Assembly: GCA_038247415.1 (NCBI GenBank)
Contig: JBBRUX010000012.1
Span: 1 to 64,000 of the forward strand
Length of the DNA: 64,000 nucleotides
Direction of reading: 5' to 3'
Source: Chitinivibrionales bacterium
Lineage (GTDB): Bacteria > Fibrobacterota > Chitinivibrionia > Chitinivibrionales > WJKA01
Below, piece by piece: positions 18,001-21,000 of this stretch; position 1 is the stretch's first letter; each line of letters starts with the position of its first letter. The position numbers are program-made.

Positions 18001-21000
18001 TGATACCAAAAATCGTAGTTACCTACATACACAGAAATTTTGCTAAAATCGATATCGGCAATATGGGTACAGACTTTATTAAGAAAGTGACGGTCATGAG
18101 AAACCACAATAACGGTATTCTCGAATTTGTAAAGAAATTCCTCGAGCCAGGTTATCGAATCGAGATCGAGATGGTTTGTTGGTTCATCCAGAAGAAGAAT
18201 ATCAGGATTGCCAAAGAGCGCTTGCGCCAAGAGAACCCTTATTTTTTCACCACTCTCAAGCTCCCTCATTTTTTTCTGGTGCGTGCCTTCTGCTATGTCT
18301 AAGCCCGAAAGAAGCGCAGCTGCCTCGGATTCGGCTTCCCATCCGTTAATTTCTGCAAGCTCCCCCTCAATTTCAGATGCACGCAACCCTTTTTCGTCGG
18401 TGAAATCGTCCGATGCGTAAATGAGTTCTCGTTCGTTAAGAATATCAAACAAATGTTTATGACCCATGATGACGGTATTGAGTACGGTCTGATCATCAAA
18501 AGCAAACTGATCCTGCCGAAGCACCGCGATGCGCTCCTTGGGAGCTTTAATCACATCCCCCGATGATTGCTCGATTTCGCCCGAGAGGATTTTTAAAAAC
18601 GTAGATTTGCCTGATCCATTTGCTCCAATAAGGCCATAGCAATTGCCTGGAGTGAACTTGATGTTAACCTCTTTAAAGAGGGTGCGTTTGCCATAAATAA
18701 GCGAAAGATTGGACGTACTGATCATGCAATAATGCCTTTCAACCGTGCGCGCTCAAACCTAAGCGCAAAATATGTATGTGTATAAGCCTAAGGGGTCTCT
18801 AAAATAGGTTAAAGAACGTAAAAATAAAAGTAATTGAGAACAATACTAAGTATAGGCATTCTGGTTTAGGTGTAAGTCATTAATACCAAACTTAAATAAG
18901 AATCTGGGCGTATCGGGTTTGCCTTGATCACTAAGCAATGATAAGATTTTGGGCGTATCGGCTCCGCCGTCGGGCCTCCTCCATGCTCTGGCTTCGCCAG
19001 CCGGTACAAAAATCCTTGCGGCGCAAAGCGCCTGAGTCTTTTTGCACTGAGGGGTGTCACTGCCGTTTTCCCCCTCACATTCCGTCCTCCCTTACGCGCT
19101 TGACATGCGACCCTTCGACAGGCTCTGGGCCCGCGGATCTGGGGCAAATTGATCAATCGCACTGAGCCGGTCGAAGTGGTGAGGTTCTAAAGTAAATAAC
19201 TCCCACAGCTCTTCTCTGGGGGCAGTTCCGTTTCGCTTTCACCCTCAGTCCTGGCTAATGCGATTACCATGATTAATTCGGACAGAAATCAAGATCATTA
19301 AGAGATTTATTAAGTAGTCGCCCAGAATTAAGATTATTAAGAGATTAACTATTTATTATCCTGGAATTAAGAAAAAGAAGCAAGGTTACTTTCGATGGTG
19401 GCAATAGTTTCTTGGAGGGCAGGATCGGAGGAGAGCGTGATTTCCATTCGTTTGCATGCATGGATGACTGTAGAGTAGTCGCGGCCTCCAAATTGTAAAC
19501 CAATGGTTCGTAGCGATTGGCGTGTCCATTTTTTGCATAAATACATTGCTGCATAGCGGGGGAGCGTTACTTCTCGTTTACTTGAATGAGCGGTGATTTG
19601 ATTCACGCTTATATTAAAGGCTTGAGCAACCTGGTTTTGGATGTGTTCTATTGATAATCGTAATTCTTTTTGCGCGATAATATCGCCGCATATTTCGCGG
19701 GCAACATCCAGAGTTATATCTCTTCCGGTAAAAGATGCAGAAGCAATCAGCTTAATAAGAATTCCCTCGAGTTCCCGGATATTTGAGGTGATATGGCTTG
19801 CTATATATTCGATGACAGCATCATCGAGCATCAGTCCATCCATTTCAACTTTTTTACGGAGAATTGCCATACGGGTTTCGAGGTTTGGTGGCTGGATGTC
19901 GGTAATGAGCCCGCCCATGAACCGATTGATAATATGATGCATCATATCGGGGATTTTATCGGGGGAACGATCAGAAGAGAGGACGATTTGTTTATTTTCG
20001 AGAAGTAGCTTATTAAAAATGCGAAAAAATTCTTTTTGAGTACCTTGTTTACCGCTAAAAAATTGAATATCATCGATGAGAAGAAGGTCGGTGTCTTTAA
20101 ATTGTTTATAAAAAGAGGTTGAATCCTTTTTCTCGATGACGTAGCCAATATATTGGTTCGTGAAATCTTCTGAAGTGAGGTAGGTGACATTTGAGGCAGT
20201 AGATTCACTCTGCGCAAAATGACCGATAGATTGCAGGAGATGGGTTTTCCCTAAACCGGTTGAGCCATATATAATAAGTGGATTAAACGTTGTTTTGCCA
20301 GGAGCTTCTGCAACAGCGAGCGCTGCAGCTTGTGCCATACGATTGTTATCGCCTATGATAAATTTATCGAATACATAATTGGGGTGGAACTGGCGTTTTG
20401 ATTTATTGGATGGAATTATTCGGGGCGTTTTAACGAGTGTAATTGATTCTTGAATTGGTTCTATGATTTTCCAATCTTTTTGAACCGATACAAAGCTTAG
20501 TGGCAGCGCAGAGATTCCTTGATTTGTAAGCGCTTCTGTAATAACGGTGCTAAAATGCTCTTCGATAAAATCTGCAAAAAATTGGTTAGGAACCAGAATC
20601 TTGGGAGACCCATTATCAGAAAATGCAAGGTCTGTAGACCTAAACCAGGTCTCAAAGCTGCTACTACCAATTTTTTCGGAGATATAGGTTAAACATGTCT
20701 GCCAGATTGGAACGTCTGGCTGGTGCACACTGTTGGAGGTTCTTAACATGTTATCCACATTTGTTTTTATTTACAGATTGTTTTATATGAACAAATCAAT
20801 TTAAGCGCTTTTAGATTCCATTTTTTTTACTTAATTATTTGTAACTTATTATAAATTAAGAGTATACAAGGTTACGGTAATGTTATTTATCTGTTAGGCT
20901 AATGTTATCAACGGGTTATTAACATACTTTTAACGAGTTATCAACATACAGTTATCAACATCAAAAAATAGCCTCATTATTCAATATAAATTCCTGTTTG

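What a model noticed while it worked through the whole genome (the two positions that open the first line are those of the whole stretch)
19367..20749. Two full-length DnaA initiator paralogs, an ancient duplication shared by the whole phylum
Besides the canonical dnaA next to dnaN (g00210, C2:92217-93557), the genome has a second complete four-domain DnaA (g01155, C12:19367-20749, 40% identical) with intact Walker A/B, sensor and DnaA-signature motifs and three DnaA-box-like 9-mers (at most 1 mismatch) in the 555 nt upstream of it. The pair is not a recent copy: two DnaA genes are found in 37 of 41 sampled Fibrobacterota genomes and 55 of 81 Chitinivibrionales genomes, and in a tree one copy of each of 11 genomes falls in a single clade with 100/100 support while the other copy lies outside it.
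Evidence so far: all-vs-all blastp 40.5% identity over 447 aa; Pfam DnaA_N, Bac_DnaA, Bac_DnaA_C on both; motif alignment and DnaA boxes TTATCCACA/TTATCAACA x3 in C12:20750-21304 just upstream of g01155; PF00308 scan of 81 genomes of the order: 55 with 2 hits (one of them with stops inside), 24 with 1, 2 with 0; nearly all hits lie in open frames of 350-530 aa; protein search of 41 genomes drawn across the phylum: 37 with 2 hits, orthologues of g01155 59-68% identical in other families vs 41% to the own dnaA1; ML tree of 22 sequences from 11 genomes. The divergent upstream neighbour, a DUF5610 gene (g01156), is also next to the dnaA2 orthologue in 1 of 2 relatives' loci looked at.
(Added by a program. 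Inside this text positions count along the whole contig: contig position 1 is position 1 of the stretch shown here. "Call 12" and the like, gene names such as g00115 and contig names such as C1 are that model's own, and its searches are not shown. The text may have been shortened before it was handed on; [...] marks where a part breaks off. The agent that wrote the report below was given it as the finding of a first reader that could run no searches.)

Follow-up and report, generated by a model that had tools for sequence, protein, structure and literature searches.

The report
Phylum-wide second DnaA with box array
This bacterium, like nearly all members of its phylum, keeps a second complete copy of the replication-initiator protein DnaA far from the replication origin. 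DnaA-binding sites sit in fixed positions in front of that gene, so it looks like a regulated partner or regulator of initiation and not a spare copy.

Summary
Window 19367-20749(-) encodes a complete four-domain DnaA (DnaA2), 40% identical to the dnaN-linked DnaA1 on contig C2.

The duplication is old and vertically inherited:
- 135 of 151 Fibrobacterota genomes carry at least two strong PF00308 matches. In a neighbouring phylum 0 of 121 carry two full-length copies.
- With 29-44 labelled outgroups, DnaA2 copies form one clan (100/100) and DnaA1 copies another (97/95).
- A tree that joins the two clans is not rejected (p-AU 0.65).
- Single-copy genomes appear to be assembly gaps: 4 of 5 checked also lack dnaN.

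New here:
- The GC-skew switch and five boxes place oriC at dnaA1-dnaN. There is no switch at dnaA2.
- dnaA2 is preceded by a conserved -10-like TATATT, then 4-5 head-to-tail DnaA boxes, and one box abutting the ATG. At least one box is present in 55 of 60 orthologous loci (14-fold enrichment). dnaA1 upstream regions are almost box-free.
- DnaA2 keeps its ATPase motifs but never the canonical Asp-His base-reading pair (0 of 30 tree rows).

Best reading (0.55): a box-controlled, ATP-dependent DnaA-box binder that modulates initiation or transcription and is not the main initiator. Two dnaA copies in Fibrobacter were listed in 2011. The function is untested.

The parts
19367..20749 (-). dnaA2 coding sequence (460 aa): domain I, linker, AAA+ domain III, HTH domain IV
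   Evidence: The ATG at 20749 is the conserved start in the alignment of 21 upstream regions.
20751..20759 (-). Perfect DnaA box (TGTGGATAA on the gene strand) one base before the ATG. It is part of a TGTTGATAACATGTT block kept at 80% or more of sequences at every position
20905..20960 (-). Head-to-tail array of DnaA boxes on the gene strand: 20960-20952 and 20946-20938 (both TGTTGATAA), a degenerate box at about 20935-20927, 20924-20916 (TGTTAATAA) and 20913-20905 (CGTTGATAA). Spacing is 11-14 bp
   Evidence: The same array stands at about -213/-199/-176 in orthologues.
20983..21010 (-). Promoter-like site TTGCAA-16-TATATT. The TATATT hexamer is conserved in the orthologue alignment and lies about 20 nt upstream of the first box
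   Evidence: This is a consensus match only; the number of such sites in the region equals the shuffled expectation.
20760..20904 (-). AT-rich, poorly conserved leader between the box array and the start-codon box
   Evidence: no Rfam match
21293..22048 (+). Divergent neighbour, a DUF5610 protein with a conserved C-terminal helical domain (PEYWNAENTSQRIVDFA...)
22082..22978 (-). MlaD-like gene, the next conserved neighbour in many dnaA2 loci
   Evidence: 23.7 bits, below the 25.1 cut-off

Best explanation
DnaA2 is an ancient, vertically inherited paralogue of the replication initiator. It arose at or near the base of Fibrobacterota and has been kept under purifying selection ever since. In this genome DnaA1 is the origin-linked initiator: oriC lies in the dnaA1-dnaN spacer. 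DnaA2 is encoded elsewhere.

Transcription of dnaA2 starts at a conserved TATATT element (inferred). It then has to pass a phased array of 4-5 DnaA boxes and a further box that abuts the start codon. Expression is therefore set by how fully those boxes are occupied, by DnaA2 itself, by DnaA1 or by both. This would be negative feedback (inferred).

The protein still binds ATP and, outside Fibrobacteraceae, keeps the arginine finger, so it can probably form ATP-dependent head-to-tail oligomers on box arrays (inferred from conserved motifs). Its DNA-reading helix always departs from the canonical Asp-His pair.

The most likely role is a DnaA-box-binding regulator that tunes initiation by DnaA1. 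It could do this by competing for or co-occupying boxes, by titration, or by mixed oligomers. It may also regulate transcription of box-bearing genes. It is probably not the primary initiator.

Shown here: existence, age, vertical inheritance, conserved motifs, conserved box architecture, and location away from the skew switch. Inferred: who binds the boxes, the sign of the regulation, and the link to initiation.
For: Age and inheritance: with the baseline (0 of 121 genomes of a neighbouring phylum have two full-length copies; 5 of 5 outgroup genomes from neighbouring phyla have one match).

Purifying selection: over 36 genome pairs without long branches, mean identity is 46.3% among DnaA2 orthologues and 47.0% among DnaA1 orthologues. 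Against the two f4 genomes, DnaA2 is 65% identical and DnaA1 61-64%.

Origin at dnaA1: the GC skew on C2 turns from negative to positive at 90-95 kb. C12 is positive throughout, with no switch at 19-21 kb. The 251-bp dnaA1-dnaN spacer holds five boxes within one mismatch of TTATCAACA.

Box architecture: in 60 dnaA2 loci, box density is 4.65 per kb in the 500 nt upstream and 0.33 per kb in the rest of the same loci. Of the 60, 55 have at least 1 box, 47 at least 2 and 32 at least 3, at fixed offsets near -213, -199, -176 and -10/-1. In 15 dnaA1 loci there is one box in total. The alignment shows TATATT, then five head-to-tail boxes, then the TGTTGATAACATGTT block. The arrangement is unique in the genome.

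Motifs: 70 of the 84 columns conserved in other DnaA are kept in DnaA2, including Walker A/B, the arginine finger and sensor II. The canonical Asp-His pair is present in 0 of 30 DnaA2 tree rows (DY 20, NY 1, NH 6, TH 3) and 0 of 53 orthologue loci (DY 48, NH 2, TH 2, unread 1). It is present in 71 of 80 outgroups and in 15 of 15 readable DnaA1. These two residues are among the six base-contacting residues of E. coli DnaA (passages in PMC7561715 and PMC2533591).
Against: - No expression or binding data exist. No RNA run holds the locus.
- DnaA2 keeps all four domains, including domain I, which in model organisms recruits the helicase (my recollection). A true initiator role is therefore not excluded.
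- The boxes upstream of dnaA2 have the same sequence type as those at the putative oriC. The altered Asp-His pair therefore has no visible matching change in target sequence. Box variants also do not track the DY, NH and TH states.
- In a closed Fibrobacteraceae genome (G085) neither dnaA gene lies near the skew minimum at about 2.20 Mb. Distance from the origin is thus weak evidence about function in that family.
- The promoter assignment rests on a conserved hexamer and a consensus scan that found no more sites than shuffled sequence.
- Ten of the 12 single-copy genomes of the order appear to keep only the DnaA2 type. I read this as assembly loss of the oriC region, but only 5 were checked, and one of those does have dnaN.
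Confidence: 0.55

Rival explanations
1. Two-initiator system. DnaA1 and DnaA2 are both required at oriC and form mixed ATP-dependent oligomers with divided labour, for example one anchoring on boxes and the other loading the helicase.
For: Both copies keep all four domains and the ATPase motifs. Both are retained in 133-135 of 151 genomes and in all 19 families sampled. Their constraint is equal across most of the phylum. The oriC boxes and the dnaA2 boxes are the same sequence type.
Against: Three of the five long-branch DnaA2 copies, including both Fibrobacteraceae ones, have lost the arginine finger, and the two Fibrobacteraceae copies score below the DnaA equivalog cut-off at 311 and 324 bits against 343.9. 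An obligatory filament partner would be expected to keep these. The box VII arginine next to the finger is His in this order. No interaction evidence is available.
Confidence: 0.2
2. Pure transcription factor. DnaA2 has left replication control and uses DnaA-box recognition to regulate a set of genes, including itself.
For: It lies away from the origin. Its own promoter carries boxes in a repressor-like position. The base-reading pair is altered. DnaA is known as a bifunctional initiator and transcription factor, and chlamydial paralogues have been treated as transcription factors (passages of PMC4989314).
Against: The full AAA+ machinery and domain I are conserved, which a simple repressor would not need. 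No other same-strand array of perfect boxes occurs in the genome. The only other clusters of perfect boxes are the oriC spacer and a site 4 kb from dnaA1, so no regulon is visible.
Confidence: 0.15
3. Second origin. The box array and AT-rich leader upstream of dnaA2 form a dormant or conditional origin that DnaA2 fires.
For: Phased head-to-tail boxes next to about 145 nt of AT-rich DNA resemble the architecture of an origin.
Against: There is no GC-skew switch on C12. G085 shows no sign change around its DnaA2-type gene: skew is positive at 3.61 Mb, at 1-20 kb and at 190 kb. The AT-rich stretch is not conserved in sequence and shows no repeated trinucleotide element in the alignment. The array lies downstream of a conserved promoter-like hexamer, which fits a leader.
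Confidence: 0.05
4. Redundant or decaying duplicate with no distinct role.
For: Fast evolution and motif loss in Fibrobacteraceae and a few other lineages.
Against: Open full-length frames occur in every family sampled. Within the order, identity to the window's protein is 60-71% in most loci and as low as 46% in the most divergent of the 53. Seventy-seven columns are invariant across 24 orthologues. The regulatory DNA is conserved.
Confidence: 0.03

Closest known systems
Canonical chromosomal initiator DnaA (TIGR00362; solved structures 8btg, 2z4r, 1l8q, 1j1v)
   Same: Four-domain layout. The score is above the equivalog cut-off. Identity to other phyla's DnaA is 36-48%. Walker A/B, arginine finger, sensor II and the Arg399-equivalent are kept.
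   Different: It is not at the GC-skew switch. The canonical Asp-His base-reading pair is never present. The box VII arginine is His in this order. It forms its own clan apart from all 29-44 labelled DnaA of other phyla and from DnaA1.
Two dnaA copies listed for other bacteria (Chlamydia, Chlamydophila, Parachlamydia, Lawsonia, Desulfovibrio and relatives, Thermincola, Pedobacter, Salinibacter, Pirellula, and one Fibrobacter genome)
   Same: A second complete dnaA in one genome. Fibrobacter itself is on the 2011 list (passage of PMC3080875). A 2025 preprint names Desulfovibrionia and Chlamydiales (passage).
   Different: Those are copy-number listings. My searches found no paper describing phylum-wide retention, a tree, the altered reading pair or the conserved box array in Fibrobacterota. 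I did not test whether the other lineages' second copies are related to this clan. None of the 44 labelled outgroup rows fell inside it, but those lineages were not deliberately sampled.
Autoregulated dnaA promoters and chromosomal DnaA-box clusters (E. coli dnaA promoter box and datA; B. subtilis DnaA-box clusters)
   Same: A cluster of closely spaced DnaA boxes outside oriC, next to a dnaA gene. [quoted passage not shown] Chromosomal titration of E. coli DnaA is described in PMC12371093 (start of abstract seen in the listing). The details of datA and of dnaA autoregulation are my recollection.
   Different: Here the boxed promoter belongs to the paralogue, while the origin-linked dnaA1 has almost no boxes upstream. 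One box abuts the start codon within a block conserved at 80% or more at every position.
Hda / HdaA (DnaA-related regulators of initiator activity)
   Same: A DnaA-derived AAA+ protein that regulates the initiator instead of initiating. This is a functional analogy only.
   Different: Hda lacks domains I and IV, and DnaA2 has both. The TIGR03420 score of 105.2 is below its 194.8 cut-off.

Membership tests
DnaA (chromosomal replication initiator, TIGR00362 / Pfam DnaA_N + Bac_DnaA + Bac_DnaA_C) | Four-domain architecture with all three Pfam domains | tested here: met
   52.9, 192.2 and 84.2 bits, all above their cut-offs
DnaA (chromosomal replication initiator, TIGR00362 / Pfam DnaA_N + Bac_DnaA + Bac_DnaA_C) | Score above the curated equivalog cut-off | tested here: met
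   470.3 against 343.9. The Fibrobacteraceae orthologues of DnaA2 fail it, at 311.3 and 324.3.
DnaA (chromosomal replication initiator, TIGR00362 / Pfam DnaA_N + Bac_DnaA + Bac_DnaA_C) | Walker A, Walker B, box VII arginine finger and sensor II arginine | tested here: met
   GxxGxGKTH, DD, R276 and R325 are conserved. The neighbouring box VII Arg is His272 in the window's protein.
DnaA (chromosomal replication initiator, TIGR00362 / Pfam DnaA_N + Bac_DnaA + Bac_DnaA_C) | Base-contacting residues of domain IV (E. coli R399, P423, D433, H434, T435, H439, as listed in passages of PMC7561715 and PMC2533591) | tested here: not met
   R399, D433 and H439 equivalents are kept. H434 is Tyr425. T435 is Ser in both paralogues. 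P423 is absent from both paralogues. The canonical D-H pair is found in 0 of 30 DnaA2 tree rows.
DnaA (chromosomal replication initiator, TIGR00362 / Pfam DnaA_N + Bac_DnaA + Bac_DnaA_C) | Gene at or near oriC (common but not universal) | tested here: not met
   no skew switch on C12; the switch is at dnaA1 on C2
DnaA (chromosomal replication initiator, TIGR00362 / Pfam DnaA_N + Bac_DnaA + Bac_DnaA_C) | Unwinds oriC and loads the helicase | not testable with these tools
   needs genetics or biochemistry
Hda-type DnaA inactivator | AAA+ domain only, with no domain I or IV, and a score above the TIGR03420 cut-off | tested here: not met
   105.2 against 194.8; domains I and IV are present
DnaA-box-controlled (autoregulated) dnaA promoter | DnaA boxes within or just downstream of the promoter, conserved among orthologues | tested here: met
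   The promoter itself is only a conserved hexamer plus a consensus match.
DnaA-box-controlled (autoregulated) dnaA promoter | Occupancy of the boxes changes transcription | not testable with these tools
   no RNA holder listed

The most novel reading that the evidence does not exclude
Fibrobacterota run replication initiation with two specialised DnaA proteins. DnaA1 is the origin-bound initiator. DnaA2 is an ATP-driven governor that polymerises on its own phased box array and on oriC boxes. It would sense and buffer initiator activity through a built-in negative feedback loop. If so, a whole phylum has replaced the usual small accessory regulators (Hda, datA, SirA/YabA-type) with a full-length DnaA paralogue that has a re-tuned DNA-reading head.
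Probability: 0.25. Interest if true: 0.8.

Novelty: new variant of a known kind. Interest (0 to 1): 0.55.

Why it matters
DnaA is usually a single-copy gene. One survey found it once in 95% of 1,067 genomes (passage of PMC3080875). The second copies that do exist have no established function.

Here a whole phylum keeps two copies, each inherited vertically, and this gives a natural system for asking what a second initiator-like protein is for. The conserved box array and the start-codon box are ready targets for EMSA, ChIP and reporter tests in culturable Fibrobacter or Chitinivibrio relatives. The recurrent change of the Asp-His reading pair is a specific handle on how DnaA reads its box.

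There are also two practical points:
- Origin-prediction and annotation pipelines that anchor on 'the' dnaA gene will be misled in this phylum. In closed genome G085, neither dnaA gene lies near the skew minimum.
- MAGs of this order often lose the AT-rich dnaA1-dnaN region.

Tried and rejected
- RNA evidence: no RNA holder listed. Five DNA runs from 3 studies hold the stretch or part of it.
- Complex prediction of DnaA2 with the DUF5610 neighbour returned no answer (score 0.00, controls not folded). This is not evidence either way.
- DUF5610 structure: the AlphaFold2 model has mean pLDDT 64.2, and only the C-terminal helical part (about 160-245) is confident. Foldseek against the PDB gave no match at E <= 0.001. 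No paper in the library mentions DUF5610.
- Rfam scan of 18700-21400: no match at E <= 1.
- The sigma-70-type promoter scan found 7 sites against a shuffled mean of 6.7. It adds nothing beyond the conserved TATATT hexamer.
- GC skew of closed genome G043 (about 60% GC) was too noisy to place an origin. A crude count of long-ORF orientation did not help in G085 or G043.
- I looked for covariation between the DY, NH and TH states of DnaA2 and the G or T variant of the upstream boxes. None was apparent by eye.
- A literature search for 'His434' with 'DnaA box' found nothing. The base-contact list came from two other papers.
- Horizontal acquisition from another phylum is considered unlikely. No labelled outsider falls in the DnaA2 clan, and the clan's internal topology mirrors that of DnaA1.
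Full report
**The observation**

Window 19367-20749 on the minus strand is an open frame of 460 codons from an ATG. 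An in-frame GTG lies nine bases upstream. It carries DnaA_N, Bac_DnaA and Bac_DnaA_C, all above Pfam's cut-offs. It scores 470.3 bits on NCBIfam's DnaA equivalog model, whose cut-off is 343.9. Its best solved relative is a full-length DnaA, 8btg, at E 1e-107 and aligned end to end.

A search of the whole 3.84-Mb assembly with PF00308 finds exactly two places: this one and C2:92544-93032. The C2 gene, DnaA1 at 92217-93557, has rnpA upstream and dnaN downstream, the same three domains, and 521.7 bits. The two proteins are 40% identical over 447 residues.

**Where the origin is**

On C2 the GC skew is negative up to about 90 kb and positive from about 95 kb, with the cumulative minimum at dnaA1. 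On C12 it is positive along the whole 86 kb, with no change at 19-21 kb. The 251-bp dnaA1-dnaN spacer is very AT-rich and holds five boxes within one mismatch of TTATCAACA. So oriC is most likely there, and dnaA2 is not origin-linked.

**Distribution**

I scanned 151 Fibrobacterota genomes of at least 90% completeness, spanning 19 families and 52 genera.
- At E <= 0.001, 141 have two or more PF00308 matches.
- At E <= 1e-20, 135 do: 133 have exactly two, 2 have three and 16 have one. Every one of the 19 families has a two-copy genome.

The same scan on 121 genomes of the phylum that holds an Ignavibacteria outgroup found one strong match in each and no genome with two full-length copies. The extra matches were weak, partial hits in frames of 160-350 aa, or the two halves of a split gene. 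Five outgroup genomes from neighbouring phyla each had one match.

All 16 single-copy Fibrobacterota genomes are drafts. Ten of the 12 in the window's order seem to keep only the DnaA2-type hit. I infer this from the profile start and E-value, which resemble the window's DnaA2. Of five such genomes, four also lack any dnaN (protein query; PF02768). Because the clamp is indispensable, the dnaA1-dnaN region is most likely missing from those assemblies and not from the organisms.

**Phylogeny**

I fetched both copies from 16 genomes of 12 families, 53 named DnaA2 orthologue loci, 80 named DnaA loci from many phyla, and the 150 best representatives from a 1.84-billion-protein library.

The first tree had 99 rows: the window's two proteins, 30 rows from the other 15 paired genomes, 12 of the 53 orthologue loci, 44 of the 80 outgroup loci and 11 of the 150 representatives. 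I chose the rows for spread and full length. A branch with SH-aLRT 100 separates 31 DnaA2-type rows, all either Fibrobacterota-labelled or unlabelled, from the other 68. Of the 16 genomes, 15 have one copy on each side. The exception's second sequence sits on a 2,132-bp contig among other phyla and is probably contamination.

That tree has five long branches, so I rebuilt it without them, in careful mode, with 58 rows. DnaA2 gets 100/100 and DnaA1 97/95. DnaA1 sits with Calditrichota, Fidelibacterota and Latescibacterota (95/81 and 99/91). The point where DnaA2 attaches is unresolved (38/18).

An AU test does not reject a tree in which the phylum's DnaA1 and DnaA2 together form one group. That tree is 6.69 log-likelihood units better than the free quick-search tree, with p-AU 0.65.

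A FastTree of 219 rows keeps the clan (support 99). It then holds 27 labelled Fibrobacterota rows and 11 unlabelled representatives, and no labelled outsider. The two halves share sub-topologies: (f13,(f11,f12)) and f14 with f15 recur in both, and f9 lies with f17.

Pairwise identities of the two paralogues across genome pairs correlate (r = 0.75). Outside the long-branch lineages their divergence is equal: mean 47.0% for DnaA1 and 46.3% for DnaA2 over 36 pairs.

The simplest reading is one duplication at or before the base of the phylum, a burst of change on the DnaA2 stem, and then vertical descent of both copies.

**What changed in the protein**

Eighty-four alignment columns are conserved in outgroups and in DnaA1. 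DnaA2 outside the long branches keeps 70 of them, including Walker A and B, the arginine finger and the sensor II arginine.

The consistent departures are:
- The arginine four residues before the finger is His in this order.
- The His of FFHTFN is changed.
- The Gln after the Arg399-equivalent is changed.
- The Asp-His pair of the GGRDH(S/T)TV signature is changed.

Two papers list D433 and H434 among the six residues that make base-specific contacts in the E. coli domain IV-DnaA box structure (passages). No DnaA2 has the canonical pair.
- Tree rows (30): DY 20, NY 1, NH 6, TH 3.
- Orthologue loci (53): DY 48, NH 2, TH 2, unread 1.
- By comparison, DH occurs in 71 of 80 outgroups and in all 15 readable DnaA1.

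Three of the five long-branch copies, including both Fibrobacteraceae ones, have also lost the arginine finger. The two Fibrobacteraceae copies fall below the equivalog cut-off.

**What is upstream**

On the gene strand, the region reads as follows in the alignment of the window and 20 orthologous loci:
1. A conserved TATATT.
2. About 20 nt further on, five head-to-tail boxes spaced 11-14 bp apart: ATGTKGATAAC, TGTKGATAA, a degenerate GTGGAAAG-like box, TGTTAATAAC and GTTGATAAC.
3. A variable AT-rich leader.
4. A block TGTTGATAACATGTT that contains a box and the ATG and is kept in at least 80% of sequences at every position.

Across 60 dnaA2 loci with at least 500 nt upstream (of 67 examined), boxes occur at 4.65 per kb, against 0.33 per kb in the rest of the same loci. 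They sit at fixed offsets, and 55 loci have at least one, 47 at least two and 32 at least three. Fifteen dnaA1 loci have one box in all. The pattern reaches other families: single boxes stand near -177 to -216 in f10, f11, f12 and f13.

In the window's genome this is the only site with two perfect same-strand boxes 9-16 bp apart. The only other clusters of perfect boxes are the oriC spacer and a site 4 kb from dnaA1.

Boxes just downstream of a promoter, plus one on the start codon, are where a repressor would sit. Closely phased same-strand boxes are what lets ATP-DnaA oligomerise at origins (my recollection of the E. coli and B. subtilis literature). I therefore infer negative feedback through cooperative binding, by DnaA2, by DnaA1 or by both.

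The leader is not conserved, has no Rfam match and shows no skew switch. A second origin is therefore unlikely.

**Neighbours**

A DUF5610 gene lies divergently upstream, at a median gap of 490 nt, in 27 of 54 dnaA2 loci with enough sequence. These include loci from families f10, f14 and f17. It is next to none of 10 dnaA1 loci, and the genome has a single copy. Its C-terminal helical domain is well conserved but matches no solved fold. A MlaD-like gene follows it.

The association is old but is lost in half the loci. I make no functional claim from it.

**Comparison with what is known**

A 2011 survey of 1,067 genomes already lists one Fibrobacter genome among twelve genera with two dnaA copies (passage). 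A 2025 preprint notes two complete dnaA genes in Desulfovibrionia and Chlamydiales (passage). Chlamydial paralogues have been handled as transcription factors, without usable ChIP data (passages).

My searches were 'DnaA' with 'Fibrobacter', 'dnaA' with 'Fibrobacteres', the two-dnaA and paralogue terms, and DnaA1/DnaA2 with Chlamydia. None found a paper on phylum-wide retention, the clan, the altered reading pair or the box array. Subscription journals are not covered by that library.

**Verdict**

The finding is real and the ancient-duplication interpretation is supported. The existence of two copies in one genus is already in print. New here are the phylum-wide, vertically inherited DnaA2 clan, its consistently altered reading pair and its conserved box-controlled promoter. 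The function remains inferred.

Noticed in passing
G085 (closed genome, 3,843,004 bp): 2.20-2.21 Mb; dnaN at 2,101,232; dnaA genes at 172-1,482 and 446,690-447,988: The cumulative GC-skew minimum is at about 2.200 Mb, with DnaA-box clusters at 2,201,323-401, 2,205,513-620 (three boxes 10-11 bp apart) and 2,209,998-2,210,199. Neither dnaA gene is near it, and dnaN is 100 kb away. In this family the origin seems uncoupled from both dnaA genes.
   Followed up: partly
G000 contig C2:88237-88338 (outside the window): Three perfect TTATCMACA boxes lie within 100 bp, inside or beside a 475-aa ORF (87889-89316, minus strand), 4 kb from dnaA1. Together with the oriC spacer and the dnaA2 array, it is one of the three strongest box clusters in the genome.
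   Followed up: no
G034, G094, G066, G052 (draft genomes of the same order): Genomes rated 93-99% complete lack both the DnaA1-type gene and dnaN. The AT-rich oriC region (32% GC in the window's genome, against 44% overall) seems to drop out of metagenome bins.
   Followed up: partly
G149:C108 (2,132-bp contig), locus L118: It carries a DnaA that groups with non-Fibrobacterota sequences. It is probably a contaminant contig in that bin.
   Followed up: no
window 9480-10790(-), 10787-13099(-), 14140-16971(+): Three large ORFs (436, 770 and 943 aa) have no Pfam match at E <= 0.001.
   Followed up: no
window 23066-25051(+), 25905-28010(-), 28019-29605(-), 29618-30598(-): These encode the flagellar cap protein FliD, polyphosphate kinase Ppk1, a Ppx/GppA phosphatase and a ROK-family protein. 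All are ordinary chromosomal genes, so the contig does not look like a plasmid.
   Followed up: no
window 21293-22048(+) and 27 related loci: The DUF5610 protein has a near-invariant motif PEYWNAENTSQRIVDFA in a confident helical domain and a DGD-containing beta hairpin further N-terminal. No solved fold matches it and no paper in the library mentions it.
   Followed up: partly
representatives P0113, P0061, P0089, P0119, P0140, P0150, P0038: A few DnaA representatives outside the DnaA2 clan also carry DY, NH or TH in place of the Asp-His pair. The change is therefore not unique to this clan.
   Followed up: no
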